From a virus: a DNA stretch of 35,256 bases. The position numbers were made by a program, and so were the translations under genes. Shown here piece by piece: positions 18-12,368 of the stretch. The DNA lies in UHGV virus genome UHGV-1783823, one strand, 5' to 3'. Each line of letters begins with the position of its first letter. Position 1 is the stretch's first letter. The notes under the pieces are model-generated. The model was not told the origin of the DNA. It saw nothing but the letters and a program-made list of their open reading frames with translations, and made no database searches.

Positions 18-6616
<6,599 letters not shown>

Positions 6617-6618
6617 TA

Positions 6619-7806
6619 ATGGCAGTAGGTGAAATTCAAATTAGTGCCTTGCCTCAAGCAGCCTTACCAATTGACCTTAGTGATATCTTCCATCTTAAGC
6701 AGGGTATTGAGGATAAGAGGTGCACTCTTGAGCAATTGCTTGCTCCACACTCAAGCCTAAGAAATAACCCTCATGGTGTTACTAAAACACAAATTGGTTT
6801 AGATAACGTTATCAATGCTCTTCAGTTAGTTGCTGCAAATAACTTATCAGATGTTACTAATGTAGTTCAGGCAAGAGCAAATCTACAGATTATGTCTTCA
6901 GAAGAGGTTAATAATCTTGTTCAACAGCATATTCAGGACAAGAGCAACCCACATAATACAACTAAGGCACAGGTAGGGTTGAGTAATGTTCAGAACTGGA
7001 CAACATCGAACCTTTATAACGAAGATGCAGACAAGTACGCTACAGCAAGAGCAGTAAATAACTTGTACAAGGCTGTTCAGGCTTCCTATCCAGTAGGTAC
7101 TATCCATCTTTCCATGAACTCTGCAAACCCTTCTACATATTTAATTTGTGGAGGAACTTGGGAGTTAGTTTCAAAAGGTAGGGCATTGGTTGGCTATGAC
7201 TCTGATACAAGACCAGCAGGCTCTGTATTTGGTGCTTCAACTGTCACTTTGTCAGTTAATAACATGCCTCAACACTCTCACTCTGTGTCTCTTAGTGGTG
7301 GTGGTCATACTCATAATGCAACGGTGTCAATTTCAGCTTTTGATTATGGAACTAAGACTACTAACTCTTTTGACTATGGAACTAAGACCACTAACACAAC
7401 TGGTAACCACAACCATGTTGGTAGTGGGTCAACAGGTTCTGCTGGTGCTCATAACCACAGATTGACCTATGAATCAGGCGGTGGTTTATCGGAAAGACCT
7501 GCAATGGTTTGGTCTTCAAGGAATGACCAATCATGGTACTCAGCAGATGCTGTCTGTGAAGTAGCTGGTGCACACACTCACTCTTTCAGTGTTACCACTA
7601 ACACAACTGGTAACCACAACCATACGGTTGGTATTGGTGCTCACAGCCACACAGTTGGTATTGGTTCACATACGCACAATGGTACTGTGACAGTTTCTTC
7701 TTCTGAGCATACACATAGCGGGAACACTAACAGTGTTGGTGGTGGACAAGCTTTCAATATTGAGCAGCCATCCTTCGTACTGTATGTATGGCAGAGAACG
7801 GCTTAA
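6619..7806 (+). CDS. Tail fibre protein (short) with His-x-His repeat C-terminal module
   Basis: C-terminal half has repeated HxH motifs (HSHSVS, GGHTHNAT, GNHNH, GAHSHTVGIGSHTHNG) and ends VLYVWQRTA; C-terminal module shared with the next gene; internal 30-bp tandem duplication. Confidence 0.7.
   Translation: MAVGEIQISALPQAALPIDLSDIFHLKQGIEDKRCTLEQLLAPHSSLRNNPHGVTKTQIGLDNVINALQLVAANNLSDVTNVVQARANLQIMSSEEVNNLVQQHIQDKSNPHNTTKAQVGLSNVQNWTTSNLYNEDADKYATARAVNNLYKAVQASYPVGTIHLSMNSANPSTYLICGGTWELVSKGRALVGYDSDTRPAGSVFGASTVTLSVNNMPQHSHSVSLSGGGHTHNATVSISAFDYGTKTTNSFDYGTKTTNTTGNHNHVGSGSTGSAGAHNHRLTYESGGGLSERPAMVWSSRNDQSWYSADAVCEVAGAHTHSFSVTTNTTGNHNHTVGIGAHSHTVGIGSHTHNGTVTVSSSEHTHSGNTNSVGGGQAFNIEQPSFVLYVWQRTA
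7338..7397 (+). repeat. 30-bp tandem duplication inside short fibre gene (encodes FDYGTKTTNS / FDYGTKTTNT)
   Basis: Two adjacent 30-nt units, 7338-7367 and 7368-7397, differing at about 3 positions. Confidence 0.8.
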
Positions 7807-7815
7807 TTTCTTTAC

Positions 7816-7836
7816 AGGGGCTTTATAGCCCCTTTT
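7816..7836 (+). terminator. Rho-independent terminator-like hairpin between the two fibre genes
   Basis: AGGGGCT-TTAT-AGCCCCT stem-loop followed by a T-run; downstream RBS AAGAGG and ATG at 7853. Confidence 0.6.
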
Positions 7837-7852
7837 AAGAGGAAAATTTATA

Positions 7853-10240
7853 ATGGCAGATTACAAGTTGAGTGAATTAAACTCAATCGATACAATCCGT
7901 TCAGATGACCTTCTTCATGTCAGGGTTAAAAAGAGACCTGAAATGCTTGGCGATGAAGACCGTCGAATGACCTATCAAGATTTCTTAGCATCTTTCAAGC
8001 TTGAAAGATTTGTCCAGATTGCTGGTAGTACTATGACGGGTGACTTAGGGATTGTTAAGCTACTTTATGGTGGTAAAGTAGTATTTAACCCAACAGGCTC
8101 TTCTGAGATTAATATTGGGGACGTTTTAAAGACTTTTAAAATTAACGCAAATGGTCTTAAGCTAACTGTTGCAGATGCTTCAAGGTCGGCAACTGTTTAT
8201 CATACTCTGAATAAGCCAAGCCCTAGTGAGCTTGGGATGAGAACTAATGAAGAGAATGACACGAGATACTCAAGATTAGCTGCAAATAACACCTTTAGAG
8301 GTACTCAAGCTATTCTCTCTGACAATGAAGCCCTTATTGTTAAGAATATCACACAAGGGATGCCACTCTATATTCGTGGTCAAGATGCAGATGGCACCAA
8401 CAGATGGTATCTAGGCAATGATAATAAAGGCACAGACAACCTTGTTTTAAAAAACGTTAAATCTGGTGCATACGTAGCGATTTTAGCTAACCTAATCTCT
8501 GTGAATAAATCAATTCAAATCACTGGTCAAGTTCAACCTTCTGATTGGACTAACTTAGATGCTAGGTATTTTACTCAGACAGCAGCTAATCAGAGGTTTG
8601 CACAGTTAGCTGGTGATAATACCTTTAGAGGCGTGAATACATTTAATCAAATCCTATCAATTGAGACGAATAGTGCAGCCTTAAGGTTAAAAAATACTGT
8701 AGCTAATGGTGCACTGTACATTAAAGGTGAAAGTAATGATGGCTCTGGTAAGTGGTATGTAGGTAATGGTGATAATACACCTGCCGTATTAATTCACAAC
8801 TATACATATGGGTCTAATCTTAGACTCGACAATGGTTATGTTGAGGTTAATAAGCAACTTAAAGTCGTTGGTCAAGTTCAACCTTCTGATTGGACTAACA
8901 TTGACTCTAGATATATTCCGGCAGGAACTTTGAGTAATCTTGCTAAGCTAAGTGGTGTAAACACTTTCAGGTCTGCACAGGTTATCAATCTGAATGGCTC
9001 ATTGTTACAGCTAAAGAACACTACACAAGACAGAGAGCTATACTTTGCTGGTCATAATGCTGATGGTGTTAGAAGGTGGTACATCGGTAATGGGGAACCA
9101 TCCAACCCAACAAGGTTTACTATCCGTAACGACAGAACTGCAACTACGCTTTATATGCAAGACGATTTCTTGTTGGATAAAAATGTCAGAATTACTGGTC
9201 AAGTTCAACCTTCAGATTTCTCTAACTTAGACGCTAGATATTTCTTAAAAACAAAAGTGTTATCCCAATCTTTAATGACAAGGACAGCTAATAGGCTGGA
9301 TGACCCATCATCATTCAATAAAGATTATTCGGGATTTGTAAGAAACAATGGTATTGAGCAGGGTCTGAAAGACTTAGCCATCCACGTAGCACACTCTGCT
9401 GGTATTGCTCATGCCAGAGGTATTGCTTTTACATATGGGTCTAAAGGTCTTGATGTCTTCACATATGCTTATGGAGCAGATGGAGCATATGTTGGGGAGG
9501 CACAGTTGTATTCAACGGTATTTAAACCAACCCCTTCAGATATTGGTGCATACACTAAAGCTGAAACTGACCAGAAGATTGCACAGGCAGTAAGTGACTC
9601 TACAGACCTGAATAAAATCTATCCAGTAGGTATTGTAACGTGGTTTAACAGTAATGTTGACCCTAACACAGCGTTGCCTGGGTTAACTTGGACGTACCTG
9701 AACAATGGTGTTGGTAGAACTATCAGAATTGCAGCAGCAAACGGTTCAGATGTTGCTACAACTGGTGGTTCAGATTCTGTAACGTTGGCTGTTGGTAATT
9801 TACCATCACACACTCACAGTTTCTCTGCTACCACTTCATCTTTTGATTATGGTACGAAGGGCACTAATAGTACTGGTGGTCATACTCACTCTGTAAGTGG
9901 TACAACAAGTGCTGCTGGTAACCACGCCCACCACTTAGGTCTGCTATTGGTTAATGGTGGTGATGCTCAGTATGGTTACACAACTGTTAGCAACAGCAAG
10001 ACAAGAACTCTTGACTGGCTTGACAGAAAAGACAATAAATTCCCTAACACTAACACAACTGGTAACCATACACATACATGGTCTGGTACTACAAGCGGTG
10101 CTGGTGACCATTCCCACTCTGTAGGTATTGGTGCTCACAGCCACACAGTTAGTGGTAATACTGGTAGTACAGGTTCTGGTTCAGCATTTAGTGTTACTAA
10201 CCAGTTCTACAAATTAATGGCTTGGGTGAGAACTGCTTAA
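7853..10240 (+). CDS. Long tail fibre protein with three tandem ~110-aa modules and His-rich C-terminal domain
   Basis: 795 aa; three repeats ending [18 protein letters not shown] / [18 protein letters not shown] / [18 protein letters not shown]; C-terminus has HxH motifs and ends LMAWVRTA, paralogous to 6619-7806. Confidence 0.75.
8270..9247 (+). repeat. Intragenic tandem module repeats (3 x ~330-345 bp) in long fibre gene
   Basis: Near-identical 30-mers GGTCAAGTTCAACCTTCTGATTGGACTAAC at 8525 and 8870, and a related copy at 9197; protein motifs LYI[RK]G..DG...WY[LV]GN repeat in register; outer boundaries approximate. Confidence 0.65.
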
Positions 10241-10247
10241 TCCTTTG

Positions 10248-10276
10248 TTGACTGATTGTTAAGATGGTGTTAATAT
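10248..10276 (+). promoter_or_regulatory. Sigma70-like promoter candidate (TTGACT-17 bp-TAATAT)
   Basis: -35 TTGACT at 10248-10253, 17-bp spacer, -10 TAATAT at 10271-10276; a 9-bp inverted repeat (10261-10269 / 10293-10301) overlaps the -10. Confidence 0.4.
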
Positions 10277-10319
10277 TCTTTATGGGTATTCTCACCATCT
10301 TGGCTGATGAGGTGATTAA

Positions 10320-10517
10320 ATGCCTACAATCCTAGCAATTCTTCTAAAAAATCTAGGTAGCTTCTTCTGGAAACTCATTTTATCCCTTCTAAGTGAATAC
10401 ATGATTGAGAAAGTGTTCTTTAGGCTTGCAAGATACCTTGCGAGTAAAACAGACACACCTATTGATGATGAGTTCGTAGATAACTTAGAAAAAGCTTTTA
10501 AGGGGGAGAATAAATGA
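10320..10517 (+). CDS. Small membrane protein (holin-like size; function unproven)
   Basis: 65 aa; hydrophobic N-terminus MPTILAILLKNLGSFFWKLILSLL; RBS GAGGTGA upstream. Confidence 0.45.
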   Translation: MPTILAILLKNLGSFFWKLILSLLSEYMIEKVFFRLARYLASKTDTPIDDEFVDNLEKAFKGENK

Positions 10518-10885
10518 AGTGGCTAGAGGAAGCTTTTAAAAATAATATTGGTGCAATTGTAGTTGGTATTTTTAGTGTTATTGGGATGTATACCACCATG
10601 CAAGTCTCGGATGGTAAACAAGAAGTGTCTATCACAACAAAGTTACAACAGTTAGATAATTATTCCAAAAGTAATTATTCAGCTATTCGTGATTTACAGT
10701 CTGATATGAGGCTGCTTCAGCTAGGGATGGAGAACCAGAAAGTCCAGTTAGAGAATGTTAAAGGTGAGAACGCAAAACTTACTAAAACCCTTGATAAATT
10801 CTCTGATAGTGTGAACAATCTGGCTCAATCAGTATCAGCCCTCCAAGCTATTACTGAAAAGAACACAAAGAGTACTGAAAAGTAA
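10514..10885 (+). CDS. Membrane-anchored coiled-coil protein
   Basis: 123 aa; N-terminal TM segment IGAIVVGIFSVIGMY followed by a heptad-like charged region; ATGA overlap with upstream gene. Confidence 0.5.
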   Translation: MKWLEEAFKNNIGAIVVGIFSVIGMYTTMQVSDGKQEVSITTKLQQLDNYSKSNYSAIRDLQSDMRLLQLGMENQKVQLENVKGENAKLTKTLDKFSDSVNNLAQSVSALQAITEKNTKSTEK

Positions 10886-10890
10886 AGTTT

Positions 10891-10920
10891 AAGGCTCCTT
10901 TTTACGGGAGCCTTTTTTGT
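10891..10920. terminator. Bidirectional rho-independent terminator between convergent operons
   Basis: AAGGCTCC / GGAGCCTT 8-bp stem with 8-nt loop, flanked by T-runs; lies between + gene end 10885 and - gene end 10922. Confidence 0.7.
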
Positions 10921-10921
10921 T

Positions 10922-11821
10922 TTATTTACCTACTGACAAAGGTGCTTCAATCTTTCCTGCATGTTGGTAGTTGTTAATGCCACCAATAAAATCACTTGCA
11001 GTGAGATGTTTTAGGTCACTTAAAGTGTTAAGTGGGATACCAATCTCAAAAGTTGGTGCATGGAACTCTTCATTGTTCATCAGTTCATAAACCTGCTTCA
11101 TATGGTTCTGGTAAATCTGAGTATCCCCAAAGACACCTATCAAGTATCGTGGAGTGTATCCAGTCATCTTACAAAGAACTTCCAGAATAAAACCATAAGA
11201 CGCAATATTAAATGGAAGTCCTAAAAAGGTGTCTACAGAACGTTGATACCATTGTAAGTCAACTTCACCTTCGTTGGTGATATAAATCTGAAACAGAACA
11301 TGACAAGGTGCTAAAGCCATCGAGTTTGCTGCAATATCTGCTGCATTCCAAGCATTAACAAGCATGTAACGGTCTGTGATATCACCTTTCATCTTCGTTA
11401 CTAAGGTTTCTAACTGGTCTACAACACAACCATTATGACCTTCAAAGTTTCTCCACTGAACCCCGTAGATTCTCCCACCTGCATCTTCTAACCAGTCTTG
11501 CTCAGAAGAATAGTTAGAGCTTAACCAACGTTTAAAATCATCTGACCAGATAGTCCAACGTTCTCCATCATTTTCACCCCAAGTGCGATAACGAAGTTCA
11601 CCAAGTTTATTCTCACCGTTCAGAAACCATAAAGCTTCCCCGATAACTTGCCGTGTAAACACCTGTTTAGATGTTAAGAGCGGGAAACCAGTTCTCATAT
11701 CAAAGCGAAACTTGGGTGGAGCAAATGCAGAGATAACATCTCCAGTTCGTGTAGTACGCAGTTCACCAACGGATAAAACATGGTTCAGGATATTTTTGTA
11801 ACTCAAATCAGCTTGTGACAT
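10922..11821 (-). CDS. thyA: Thymidylate synthase
   Basis: Classic ThyA motifs: RTGDVIS, FPLLTSKQV, ALWFLNG, active-site LAPCH, DTFLGLPFNIASY (Asn retained, dUMP-specific); adjacent DHFR. Confidence 0.9.
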   Translation of the reverse strand: MSQADLSYKNILNHVLSVGELRTTRTGDVISAFAPPKFRFDMRTGFPLLTSKQVFTRQVIGEALWFLNGENKLGELRYRTWGENDGERWTIWSDDFKRWLSSNYSSEQDWLEDAGGRIYGVQWRNFEGHNGCVVDQLETLVTKMKGDITDRYMLVNAWNAADIAANSMALAPCHVLFQIYITNEGEVDLQWYQRSVDTFLGLPFNIASYGFILEVLCKMTGYTPRYLIGVFGDTQIYQNHMKQVYELMNNEEFHAPTFEIGIPLNTLSDLKHLTASDFIGGINNYQHAGKIEAPLSVGK

Positions 11822-11822
11822 A

Positions 11823-12368
11823 TCAAAAGTGTCCTTTTACTTGTGGAACATAGATTTCAAAGGTTGCTTTACCATCATCTGAGGGTCTTGACTGCACCTT
11901 TGCAAATACACGGTTATCATACAGTTTATCGAAGAAGTTTTCAAAAGGTAAATATACAGTGGCCTCTTCAGTAACCTTATGGAAAACTGTATGGAAAACT
12001 ACACCAGCATACGGCAAAGCATTGACAAGAACACCTGCACCACCAATTACAAAGATATCTTCATCAATAGAGCTATCAAGGTACTTCAAAAATGCTCCAA
12101 AGGACTCTTTGCTGGCCTTAGCATACATTACATCTTCTTTACCAAAGTCTATACCAAAATATGGCACAGAGTTTGTTAAGATAAGGTTTTCACGTTCTGG
12201 TAAAGGCTTACTACCCAGAGTCTTAAAAGTCTCATTACCCATCACTACTAAGTTATTTTTAGTGAGTCTCTTAAACTCTTGCATGTCCTGTTTATGTCGA
12301 GGCCACGGCATACCAGTTGGAGTACCAAACTCACCATTTTCACCACTTGCAAAGATTAATTTAATCAT
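11823..12368 (-). CDS. folA: Dihydrofolate reductase
   Basis: N-terminal IFASGENGEFG..MPW...D...F, VVMGNETFKTLG, PLPERENLILT, VIGGAGV; 1-nt gap to thyA. Confidence 0.85.
   Translation of the reverse strand: MIKLIFASGENGEFGTPTGMPWPRHKQDMQEFKRLTKNNLVVMGNETFKTLGSKPLPERENLILTNSVPYFGIDFGKEDVMYAKASKESFGAFLKYLDSSIDEDIFVIGGAGVLVNALPYAGVVFHTVFHKVTEEATVYLPFENFFDKLYDNRVFAKVQSRPSDDGKATFEIYVPQVKGHF

What the first reader, a model, noticed from the sequence alone, without database searches (positions are those of the whole stretch)
6619..10240. Two adjacent tail-fibre genes share a His-x-His C-terminal module, including an identical 27-bp stretch
Both proteins end with a ~130-aa module rich in HxH motifs and the terminal W[QV]RTA. 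At the DNA level GGTATTGGTGCTCACAGCCACACAGTT is identical at 7630-7656 and 10124-10150, and CTAACACAACTGGTAACCA recurs at 7598-7616 and 10050-10068. From memory, HxH repeats in T4-type fibre tips coordinate metal ions in the receptor-binding domain. The shared module implies recent duplication or gene conversion and provides homology for recombinational host-range switching.
Basis: partly seen in the sequence, partly recalled or inferred. Interest (0 to 1): 0.6.

Follow-up and report, generated by a model that had tools for sequence, protein, structure and literature searches.

The report
Felix O1-type phage tail-fibre tips
The two adjacent genes are the short and long tail fibres of a Felix O1-like phage; both end in the already described T4 gp37-type, histidine-rich receptor-binding tip, and the identical 27 bases are one conserved "His box" bordering the swappable tip segment, not a sign of recent duplication.

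Summary
The 27-mer is exact at 7630 and 10124. The 19-mer has three copies, not two. The two C-termini align collinearly (34% identity, E 3e-26).

The window is a Felixounavirus. ORF 6619-7806 is the short tail fibre (STF) and ORF 7853-10240 the long tail fibre (LTF). Both C-termini match the solved T4 gp37 tip (PDB 2XGF, E 1e-21 to 1e-25), which has a collar, an HxH needle and a head. This is already published for Felix O1, VpaE1 and Bas63.

In this genome the two modules are old paralogues: 55% nt identity, different heads, and DNA similarity only in box-sized patches. The 27-mer is the commonest genus-wide form of the GIGAHSHTV box, so recent duplication is not supported.

The recombination idea is supported by relatives:
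- LTF flanks are 83-88% identical across 30 genomes, but the cassette between the FDYGTK and GIGAH boxes is 61%.
- One relative, L008, differs from the window essentially only in that cassette.
- Felix O1-lineage phages carry one head type in both fibres (113-nt exact run in L004).
- The window's LTF cassette is 88% identical to gp37 of a T4-like phage.

This is ordinary, known biology, consistent with the T-even conserved-motif recombination model. Low-to-moderate interest.

The parts
6619..7806 (+). Short tail fibre (STF) gene, 395 aa. Equivalent to Felix O1 gp76 and Bas63 gp26.
   Evidence: ORF. phrog_2097 tail fiber, E 9e-137. Pfam Gp10_C, 68.3 bits. 2XGF match, E 8.7e-26. Synteny and sizes match Bas63.
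7087..7272 (+). STF collar domain, from YPVG to just before the first HxH.
   Evidence: Pfam PF21939 Gp10_C covers aa 154-261. Aligns to the T4 gp10 and gp37 collar. Coordinates.
7273..7458 (+). STF ascending needle strand: 4 HxH motifs (7273, 7306, 7408, 7450) and two FDYGTK units (7339-7356, 7369-7386).
   Evidence: Repeat family D7.
7459..7572 (+). STF head (tip) segment between the last ascending and first descending HxH. This head type was found only in Felixounavirus records.
   Evidence: cassette type 2. tblastn found 32 records, all Felixounavirus-like.
7573..7716 (+). STF descending needle strand with 5 HxH motifs, including two tandem 27-nt xIG[AS]HxHxx units (7630-7656 and 7657-7683).
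   Evidence: Repeat family D3.
7630..7656 (+). The 27-mer His box (GIGAHSHTV), STF copy.
7391..7409 (+). The 19-mer (part of TNTTGNH), copy on the STF ascending strand.
7598..7616 (+). The 19-mer, copy on the STF descending strand.
7853..10240 (+). Long tail fibre (LTF) gene, 795 aa. Equivalent to Felix O1 gp77 and Bas63 gp27.
   Evidence: ORF. phrog_4277, 1207 bits. Pfam gp37_trimer in 3 stretches, E 8.6e-59. 2XGF match, E 1.5e-21.
8501..9244 (+). Three diverged shaft repeats in the LTF. Their 72-nt cores lie at 8501, 8846 and 9173, spaced 327-345 nt.
   Evidence: Repeat family D1. Pfam PF20744 gp37_trimer reports 3 stretches in the LTF, with only the best one (aa 159-248) located.
9620..9808 (+). 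LTF collar domain. Together with the first His box and the FDYGTK unit (through 9859) it forms the conserved 5' flank measured.
   Evidence: Mean pairwise nt identity of this flank among 30 genomes is 0.83.
9809..9931 (+). LTF ascending needle strand: 3 HxH motifs (9809, 9881, 9923) and one FDYGTK unit (9842-9859).
9932..10066 (+). LTF head (tip) segment, shared with several T4-like phages.
   Evidence: tblastn hits include roughly 167-169 kb phages BYEP01, AV122, SHBML-50-1 and sutha.
10067..10144 (+). LTF descending needle strand with 3 HxH motifs.
10124..10150 (+). The 27-mer His box (GIGAHSHTV), LTF copy. It sits at the 5' edge of the conserved 3' flank of the LTF cassette.
10050..10068 (+). 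The 19-mer, copy on the LTF descending strand.
9834..10137 (+). A 304-nt tract that is 87.8% identical, in a single piece, to gp37 of the Tequatrovirus Shigella phage SHBML-50-1. It runs from SSFDYGTK to SVGIGA.
   Evidence: (H68).
9893..10102 (+). Approximate variable LTF cassette as seen against close relatives. Identity to L008 and L002 falls to 27-67% here, against 80-100% on both sides.
   Evidence: Cassette mean pairwise identity is 0.61, against 0.83 and 0.88 for the flanks.

Best explanation
The window comes from a Felix O1-like myophage (genus Felixounavirus). Genes 6619-7806 and 7853-10240 encode its short and long tail fibres.

Each fibre ends in a T4 gp37-type receptor-binding tip. 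The tip has three parts:
- a collar domain;
- a needle, in which the chain runs up, forms a small head, and runs back down;
- HxH motifs on both needle strands. By homology with T4 gp37, each HxH from the three chains of the trimer coordinates one metal ion (Fe2+ in T4).

The two tips are old paralogues with different heads, so the two fibres probably read different receptors.

The identical 27-mer encodes one rung of the descending strand (GIGAHSHTV). This His box is kept nearly invariant at DNA level across the genus and in T-even gene 37. Together with the FDYGTK box on the ascending strand, it brackets a hypervariable cassette made of the upper needle plus the head.

Homologous recombination within these short conserved boxes moves cassettes in three ways:
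- between alleles of the same fibre;
- between the short and long fibre;
- between Felixounavirus long fibres and gp37 of T4-like phages.

Each such move changes receptor specificity while leaving the fibre shaft and its attachment to the baseplate unchanged.

Shown here: gene identities, homology to the T4 tip, the cassette pattern and the shared tracts. Inferred: metal binding, trimer geometry, that junctions lie in the boxes, and the effect on host range.
For: Identity of the locus:
- 259 phage records match and the top hits are Felixounavirus (best 95.3%).
- Gene order and sizes are wedge 489 aa, wedge 285 aa, a 100-aa protein, 395 aa, 795 aa. These equal Bas63 gp23-gp27 as described in PMC12609058.

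Tip homology:
- Both proteins hit PDB 2XGF (T4 gp37 tip) at E 8.7e-26 and 1.5e-21, with HxH motifs aligned.
- Pfam Gp10_C and gp37_trimer are found.
- The Bas63 cryo-EM paper states that both the STF and the LTF have a collar, an HxH needle and a head like T4 gp37.
- The Felix O1 and VpaE1 papers noted the same homology.

Cassette pattern:
- Among 30 genomes, LTF flanks are 83% and 88% identical on average and the cassette 61%.
- Window vs L008: STF 93-95%, LTF flanks 94-95%, LTF cassette 55%.
- Eleven combinations of STF and LTF cassette types occur, including shared partners: 2+4 and 2+3, 1+3 and 1+9, 0+0 and 0+12.

STF-LTF exchange:
- Felix O1-lineage genomes carry one head type in both genes.
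- L004 has 200 nt at 91% with a 113-nt exact run. Its two copies are each other's nearest neighbours, with 4 differences in 123 nt.
- The L006 STF head is closest to the L016 LTF head.

Cross-family exchange:
- Window LTF vs SHBML-50-1 gp37: 304 nt at 87.8%.
- VpaE1-like L019 LTF vs T4 gp37: 287 nt at 92.7%.
- Both tracts run from the FDYGTK box to the GIGAH box.
- The window's LTF head peptide is found in at least four ~167-169 kb T4-like phages.

DNA-level conservation of the box:
- From this phage's own codon usage, nine identical codons for the same peptide have P of about 0.0005.
- The patch GGTGACCATTCCCACTCTGTAGGTATTGGTGCTCA is identical or differs by one base in four of the LTF alleles compared (the window's included), and by two bases in T4 gene 37.
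Against: - No recombinant has been observed; all evidence is comparative.
- The ends of high-identity tracts will tend to sit in conserved boxes even without any junction preference, because conserved sequence extends the apparent tract. 'Breakpoints at boxes' is therefore consistent with the model but is not an independent proof.
- Many of the 30 genomes are close relatives, so the number of independent exchange events is small, roughly five.
- Metal binding, trimer geometry and receptor specificity were not tested for these proteins.
- No gp38-like chaperone gene lies next to the fibres. Folding may therefore differ from T4.
Confidence: 0.8

Rival explanations
1. Recent duplication, or gene conversion between the two fibre genes inside this genome, produced the shared module and the identical 27-mer.
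For: - 27 of 27 identity, where codon usage alone predicts P of about 0.0005.
- All 9 codons in the box are identical. Outside it, 40 of 80 identical residues use the same codon (derived).
- In relative L012 both copies carry CAT..CAT where the window has CAC..CAC in both, a covariation that suggests micro-conversion.
- True STF-LTF conversion does occur in the Felix O1 lineage.
Against: - The modules are only 47% aa / 55% nt identical, with unrelated heads.
- The best DNA HSP between the two genes is 53 nt at 83%.
- The same 27-mer is the commonest form of the box in both genes across the genus. STF/LTF pairs from different genomes are identical in 11% of cases.
- The within-genome versus between-genome test is not significant (P = 0.12).
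- The conserved patch around the LTF box extends 5' into GDHSHSV, which is absent from the STF but present in other LTF alleles and in T4.
Confidence: 0.12
2. The shared boxes reflect only purifying selection on metal-binding residues plus codon preference. They play no role in recombination, and the mosaic pattern arises from fast divergence of the heads under selection.
For: - The HxH residues are structurally essential in T4 gp37 (PMC12609058).
- GGT, ATT and GCT are the preferred codons.
- Tract ends at conserved boxes are partly expected by construction.
Against: - Cassettes are discrete types with about 55% identity between types and over 90% within a type. Flanks 94-96% identical can carry cassettes only 55% identical. 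That is not gradual divergence.
- The same head occurs in different genes and in different phage families at 88-93% nt identity, while the adjacent collars are unrelated.
- The rare Ser codon AGC (8% usage) is used in both copies.
Confidence: 0.06
3. The similarity is low-complexity Gly/Ser/Thr/His composition without true homology.
For: The region is rich in G, S, T and H, and it contains internal repeats.
Against: - The alignment is collinear at E 3e-26 with composition adjustment.
- Both proteins hit the same solved structure over the collar, needle and head.
- The YPVG collar and the W-x-R-T-A terminus are both conserved.
Confidence: 0.01

Closest known systems
Felixounavirus short and long tail fibres (Bas63 gp26/gp27; Felix O1 gp76/gp77; VpaE1 gp74/gp75)
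   Same: - Same gene order and sizes, with 78-96% nt identity to sequenced members of the genus.
- Both fibres end in a gp37-like tip with HxH motifs.
- The LTF has 6 HxH motifs, as in Bas63.

   Different: - This STF has 9 HxH motifs, against 7 reported for the Bas63 STF.
- The particular pair of head cassettes (types 2 and 4) is one of at least 11 combinations seen.
T4 gp37 receptor-binding tip (PDB 2XGF; collar, iron-binding HxH needle, head)
   Same: - Significant sequence match over the collar, needle and head.
- HxH motifs lie on the ascending and descending strands, with FDYGTK and xIGAHxH units.
- About 35 nt around the [12 protein letters not shown] box differ from T4 gene 37 at only two bases.

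   Different: - The collars are strongly diverged.
- HxH counts differ: T4 has 7, these have 6 and 9.
- The C-terminal tail after the needle differs (W-x-R-T-A against IVRLA).
- No gp38-type chaperone gene is adjacent.
- Here the tip sits on single-protein fibres, not on a four-protein long fibre.
T-even tail-fibre adhesin shuffling by recombination between conserved motifs (Tetart et al. 1996, 1998, as cited in PMC3157838). That those motifs are GxHxH 'His boxes' is my recollection.
   Same: Short conserved motifs flank hypervariable specificity segments. Chimeric alleles have exchange tracts that end in or near the motifs (principle quoted).
   Different: - Here the pool of cassettes is shared between two paralogous fibres of one phage, and across two phage lineages (Ounavirinae and Straboviridae/Tevenvirinae).
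- No experimental recombinants exist for this genus in the literature I could search.

Membership tests
T4 gp37-type receptor-binding tip (2XGF) | Significant sequence similarity to the solved tip, spanning the collar, needle and head | tested here: met
   STF aa 146-367 against 2XGF residues 18-228, E 8.7e-26. LTF aa 648-775 against residues 94-219, E 1.5e-21.
T4 gp37-type receptor-binding tip (2XGF) | Collar domain of the gp10/gp12/gp37 type in front of the needle | tested here: met
   STF scores 68.3 bits on Pfam PF21939 Gp10_C (cut-off 27). LTF scores 23.2 bits, below the cut-off, but its collar aligns collinearly with the STF collar. So the feature is met for the STF and only weakly for the LTF.
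T4 gp37-type receptor-binding tip (2XGF) | HxH motifs on an ascending and a descending strand, either side of a His-free head insert | tested here: met
   STF has 4 ascending and 5 descending motifs around aa 281-318. LTF has 3 and 3 around aa 694-738.
T4 gp37-type receptor-binding tip (2XGF) | Octahedral coordination of Fe2+ by HxH motifs from three chains | not testable with these tools
   Inferred from homology only. Stated for T4 in PMC12609058.
T4 gp37-type receptor-binding tip (2XGF) | Intertwined homotrimer with chain reversal at the head | not testable with these tools
   The prediction tool folds monomers only, so it was not run. Shown at domain level by cryo-EM for the Bas63 homologues.
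T4 gp37-type receptor-binding tip (2XGF) | Assembly that depends on a gp38-type chaperone encoded next to the fibre gene | tested here: not met
   The two ORFs downstream (10320-10517 and 10514-10885) match only PHROGs of unknown function. Only 35 kb of the genome was visible, so a chaperone elsewhere in the genome is not excluded.
Felixounavirus STF/LTF pair | Synteny: wedge 2 (489 aa), wedge 1 (285 aa), LTF platform, STF, LTF | tested here: met
   ORFs at 3985, 5457, 6314, 6619 and 7853. Baseplate_J and baseplate PHROGs. Sizes match the Bas63 description. The same layout is present in 30 related loci.
Felixounavirus STF/LTF pair | Nucleotide similarity to sequenced members of the genus | tested here: met
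   Best hit 95.3% over 93% of the region. 259 records match, mostly Escherichia and Salmonella Felixounavirus phages.
Conserved-motif (His-box) recombination cassettes of T-even adhesins | Short conserved motifs flanking a hypervariable specificity segment | tested here: met
   LTF flanks 0.83 and 0.88 against cassette 0.61 mean pairwise identity. STF 0.75 and 0.73 against 0.58.
Conserved-motif (His-box) recombination cassettes of T-even adhesins | Chimeric alleles whose exchange tracts end in the motifs | tested here: met
   The tracts run [13 protein letters not shown] (L004 STF/LTF), [14 protein letters not shown] (window LTF / SHBML gp37) and [18 protein letters not shown] (L019 LTF / T4). 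Caveat: conservation biases apparent tract ends towards the motifs.
Conserved-motif (His-box) recombination cassettes of T-even adhesins | Recombinants obtained experimentally with an altered host range | not testable with these tools
   No cross data exist for this genus in the searchable literature.

The most novel reading that the evidence does not exclude
The His boxes and FDYGTK boxes are held constant at DNA level and act as universal joints. Through them, one common pool of needle-plus-head cassettes circulates among the short fibre, the long fibre and T4-type gp37 across two phage lineages. The numbers of ascending and descending needle rungs stay in register (1:1 to 4:4).

Under this reading the window's LTF cassette is a recent import from, or export to, T4-like phages. 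The system would be a natural plug-and-play format for re-targeting either phage group.
Probability: 0.45. Interest if true: 0.45.

Novelty: already known. Interest (0 to 1): 0.25.

Why it matters
The tips of these two fibres decide which bacteria a Felix O1-type phage can attack, and such phages are used for Salmonella and E. coli typing and biocontrol.

For this window the result is mainly a correct annotation:
- a short and a long fibre, each with a T4 gp37-type metal-binding tip;
- two different heads, so probably two receptor specificities.

The comparative results add practical detail. They mark the exact cassette boundaries: the FDYGTK box at 9842-9859 and the GIGAH box at 10124-10150 in the LTF, and 7369-7386 and 7630-7656 in the STF. 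They also show that cassettes from T4-like phages are tolerated on a Felixounavirus fibre in nature. That is useful for host-range engineering but does not open a new question.

Tried and rejected
- **Within-genome conversion at the 27-mer.** I tested whether STF and LTF boxes are more alike within a genome than between genomes, using 10 genomes that have GIGAHSHTV in both genes. Mean mismatches were 1.30 against 1.68, permutation P = 0.12, so this is not significant.
- **Longest exact STF/LTF match per genome.** The median is 20 nt within genomes and 17 nt between genomes. Only the Felix O1 lineage stands out.
- **Literature.**
  - A search for 'His box' + tail fiber + recombination found nothing.
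  - The T4 tip structure paper (PMC2996694) is not held. The statement about iron therefore rests on PMC12609058 and on my own knowledge.
  - The 'bred phage' paper (PMC8614997) concerns Tequatrovirus, not Felixounavirus.
  - From memory, I take the VpaE1_ev78 record to be a natural isolate, not an evolved line.
- **Chaperone search.** The two ORFs after the LTF match only PHROGs of unknown function.
- **Other scans.**
  - No tRNA genes.
  - No Rfam matches.
  - Promoter-like sites at background level.
  - The antisense ORFs inside the fibre genes (6898-7107, 7391-7573, 9619-9813, 9944-10144) have no support.
- **Not run.**
  - Structure prediction, because the tool folds monomers only and the needle is an intertwined trimer. 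The sequence match to 2XGF and the published cryo-EM already answer the fold question.
  - The large protein-database searches, because they would not change the verdict.
Full report
**1. The observation**

- The 27-mer GGTATTGGTGCTCACAGCCACACAGTT is present exactly twice, at 7630-7656 and 10124-10150. None of 100 shuffles contained it.
- The 19-mer CTAACACAACTGGTAACCA is at 7598-7616 and 10050-10068 as reported, and also at 7391-7409.
- The two ORFs are 6619-7806 (395 aa, ending WQRTA) and 7853-10240 (795 aa, ending WVRTA).
- BLASTP aligns residues 136-395 of the first with 563-795 of the second collinearly: 34% identity, E 3e-26, with composition adjustment.
It runs from a YPVG motif (7087 and 9620) to the stop codon, 239 and 206 residues, and includes a collar domain in front of the His-rich part.

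**2. What the genes are**

- The region matches 259 phage records. The best is a Felixounavirus at 95.3%; Felix O1 itself is 85.7% over the alignable 63%.
- The ORFs upstream are a Baseplate_J protein of 489 aa, a baseplate protein of 285 aa and a 100-aa protein.
- This is the order, and these are the sizes, given for Bas63 wedge 2, wedge 1 and LTF platform, which are followed by the short tail fibre gp26 and the long tail fibre gp27 (PMC12609058).
- All 30 related loci I collected have the same pair of genes.
- So 6619-7806 is the short tail fibre (STF) and 7853-10240 the long tail fibre (LTF).
- The LTF shaft carries three gp37_trimer repeats (Pfam E 8.6e-59; repeat family D1).

**3. What the shared module is**

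- Both C-termini match the sequence of the solved T4 gp37 receptor-binding tip, PDB 2XGF. The STF matches at E 8.7e-26 over chain residues 18-228, and the LTF at E 1.5e-21 over residues 94-219. The HxH motifs align.
- The STF collar also matches T4 gp10's C-terminal domain above Pfam's cut-off.
- The STF has four HxH motifs before a His-free segment (aa 281-318) and five after it. The LTF has three before and three after aa 694-738. T4 has three and four.
- This is the collar, needle and head layout. According to the Bas63 cryo-EM paper, both Felixounavirus fibres have it, and in T4 the di-histidine motifs coordinate iron along the needle.
- The homology of both fibres to T4 gp37 was already noted for Felix O1 in 2010 and for VpaE1 in 2015.

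**4. Is it a recent duplication or conversion in this genome?**

The evidence is against it:
- Over 190 aligned codons the two modules are 47% identical in protein and 55% in DNA, and their heads are unrelated.
- The best blastn HSP between the two genes is 53 nt at 83%.
- The 27-mer is the commonest form of the GIGAHSHTV box in both genes across the genus.
- STF and LTF boxes taken from different genomes are identical in 11% of pairs. Within-genome pairs are not significantly more alike (mean 1.30 against 1.68 mismatches, permutation P = 0.12).

Even so, the box is more conserved in DNA than the peptide requires:
- From this phage's own codon usage, nine identical codons have a probability of about 0.0005. 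Both copies use the rare Ser codon AGC.
- One relative, L012, has CAT..CAT in both copies where the window has CAC..CAC in both. That hints at occasional micro-conversion but proves nothing for this genome.
- The conserved patch around the LTF copy (GGTGACCATTCCCACTCTGTAGGTATTGGTGCTCA, 10103-10137) extends into GDHSHSV. The STF lacks this sequence, but other LTF alleles and T4 gene 37 share it.
- The window's closest relatives (L001, L026, L031) carry a different patch there, in an otherwise 97-100% identical stretch.
- The likelier source of the LTF box is therefore another LTF or gp37 allele, not the neighbouring STF.

**5. Do the boxes serve recombination? Comparative evidence says yes**

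I split each tip at the last FDYGxK unit and the first xIG[AS]HxH unit after the head.
- Across 30 genomes, the LTF 5' flank, cassette and 3' flank have mean pairwise identities of 0.83, 0.61 and 0.88. The STF values are 0.75, 0.58 and 0.73.
- Cassettes fall into discrete types.
- Eleven STF+LTF type combinations occur, with shared partners: 2+4 and 2+3, 1+3 and 1+9, 0+0 and 0+12.
- L008 matches the window at 93-95% through the STF and at 94-95% in the LTF flanks, but only 55% in the LTF cassette. Identity falls near 9893-9923 and recovers at 10103-10133, where the 27-mer lies.

**6. Exchange between the two fibres**

- In the Felix O1 lineage (L004, L006, L016, L028, L032 = Felix O1), the STF and LTF carry the same head type (GG[RH]YGGDSIGGK...).
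- L004 shows 200 nt at 91% with a 113-nt exact run.
- Felix O1 shows 270 nt at 81% with a 51-nt exact run. In both genomes the collars remain about 50% identical.
- In a 123-nt core, the two L004 copies are each other's nearest neighbours: 4 differences, against 10-24 to other STFs. This indicates a recent conversion inside that genome.
- The L006 STF core is closest to the L016 LTF core (9 differences), which indicates an exchange both between genes and between genomes.

**7. Exchange with T4-like phages**

- The window's LTF is 87.8% identical over 304 nt (9834-10137, from SSFDYGTK to SVGIGA) to gp37 of the Tequatrovirus SHBML-50-1.
- That gp37 differs from T4 gp37 essentially only between the same two boxes.
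- The window's LTF head peptide is found in at least four ~167-169 kb T4-like phages. The STF head was found only in Felixounavirus-like records.
- VpaE1-like LTFs (L019, L009) carry the T4 gp37 head itself, at 92.7% and 87.5% over 287 nt from [10 protein letters not shown] to GIGAHSHT.
- The VpaE1 paper had called the proteins only distantly related.

**8. Mechanism and its limits**

- The best reading is that the boxes are structurally fixed rungs of the needle, and that their DNA is similar enough among alleles, paralogues and T-even gene 37 to support homologous recombination.
- On that reading, the upper needle plus head moves as a cassette and receptor specificity changes, without disturbing the shaft or the baseplate attachment.

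Caveats:
- No recombinant was observed.
- The ends of high-identity tracts are biased towards conserved sequence by construction.
- The number of independent events is small, about five.
- Metal binding, trimer geometry and receptors are inferred.
- No gp38-like chaperone gene lies next to the fibres.

**9. Novelty and score**

- The finding as stated, two adjacent fibre genes sharing an HxH tip, is already known for this genus.
- The recombination principle is known from T-even phages.
- I did not find the following stated explicitly in the searchable literature: the shared STF/LTF head in Felix O1, the near-identical T4 and SHBML-type cassettes on Felixounavirus fibres, and the matching counts of ascending and descending rungs.
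- These are refinements within a known framework. Interest is low to moderate.

Noticed in passing
window 7339-7386 and 7630-7683 (STF); 9842-9859 and 10124-10150 (LTF); loci L001-L032: In 61 of 62 tip modules the number of ascending [FY]DYGxK units (10 aa) equals the number of descending xIG[AS]HxH units (9 aa). The modules are 30 STF/LTF pairs plus T4 and SHBML-50-1 gp37. Counts are 1:1 in LTFs, 2:2 in the window STF and T4, 3:3 in the L003-type STFs and SHBML gp37, and 4:4 in the L018, L024 and L025 STFs. The only exception is the L023 LTF (1:2). Needle length seems to change by paired rungs.
   Followed up: partly
L004 7163-8329 / 8380-10728; L032 (Felix O1) 1501-2667 / 2718-5066: In the Felix O1 lineage the short and long fibres carry the same head cassette. 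L004 has a 113-nt exact run and 200 nt at 91%. Its two copies are each other's nearest neighbours, indicating recent conversion within that genome.
   Followed up: yes
L019 and L009 (VpaE1-like loci), LTF 3' ends; L030 (T4 gene 37): VpaE1-like Felixounavirus long fibres carry the T4 gp37 head cassette, at 92.7% and 87.5% nt identity over 287 nt. The VpaE1 paper described the proteins as only distantly related.
   Followed up: partly
window about 9533: There is a second mosaic boundary in the LTF, upstream of the collar. Identity to L002, L005, L012 and L019 jumps from 40-77% to 97-100% at about 9533, so the distal shaft is also exchanged as a block.
   Followed up: no
window 10320-10517 and 10514-10885; terminator-like hairpin 10891-10914: Two small ORFs (65 and 123 aa) follow the LTF. 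By eye, both have hydrophobic N-termini. They occupy the slot where the T4 and SHBML-50-1 records annotate gp38 and then a holin, and they match only PHROGs of unknown function (phrog_402, phrog_4038). A terminator-like hairpin follows them.
   Followed up: partly
L022 8382-10007; L028 8380-9741 and 9788-10723: In two related loci the long-fibre reading frame is interrupted. L022 has a 541-aa ORF that does not end in WVRTA, and L028 is split into 453 + 311 aa. This could be a frameshift, a pseudogene or an assembly error.
   Followed up: no
window 7391-7418 and 7598-7625: Inside the STF, a 25-nt direct repeat (92% identical, containing the 19-mer and encoding TNTTGNHNH) lies on both the ascending and descending strands, 207 nt apart. 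It brackets the head segment.
   Followed up: no
window 1-35256: The whole window contains no tRNA genes and no Rfam family matches. Downstream of the fibre module, on the minus strand, lie two ORFs (10922-11821 and 11823-12368). The first sits where the Felix O1 record annotates a putative thymidylate synthase. I read the second as dihydrofolate reductase-like by eye, untested.
   Followed up: no
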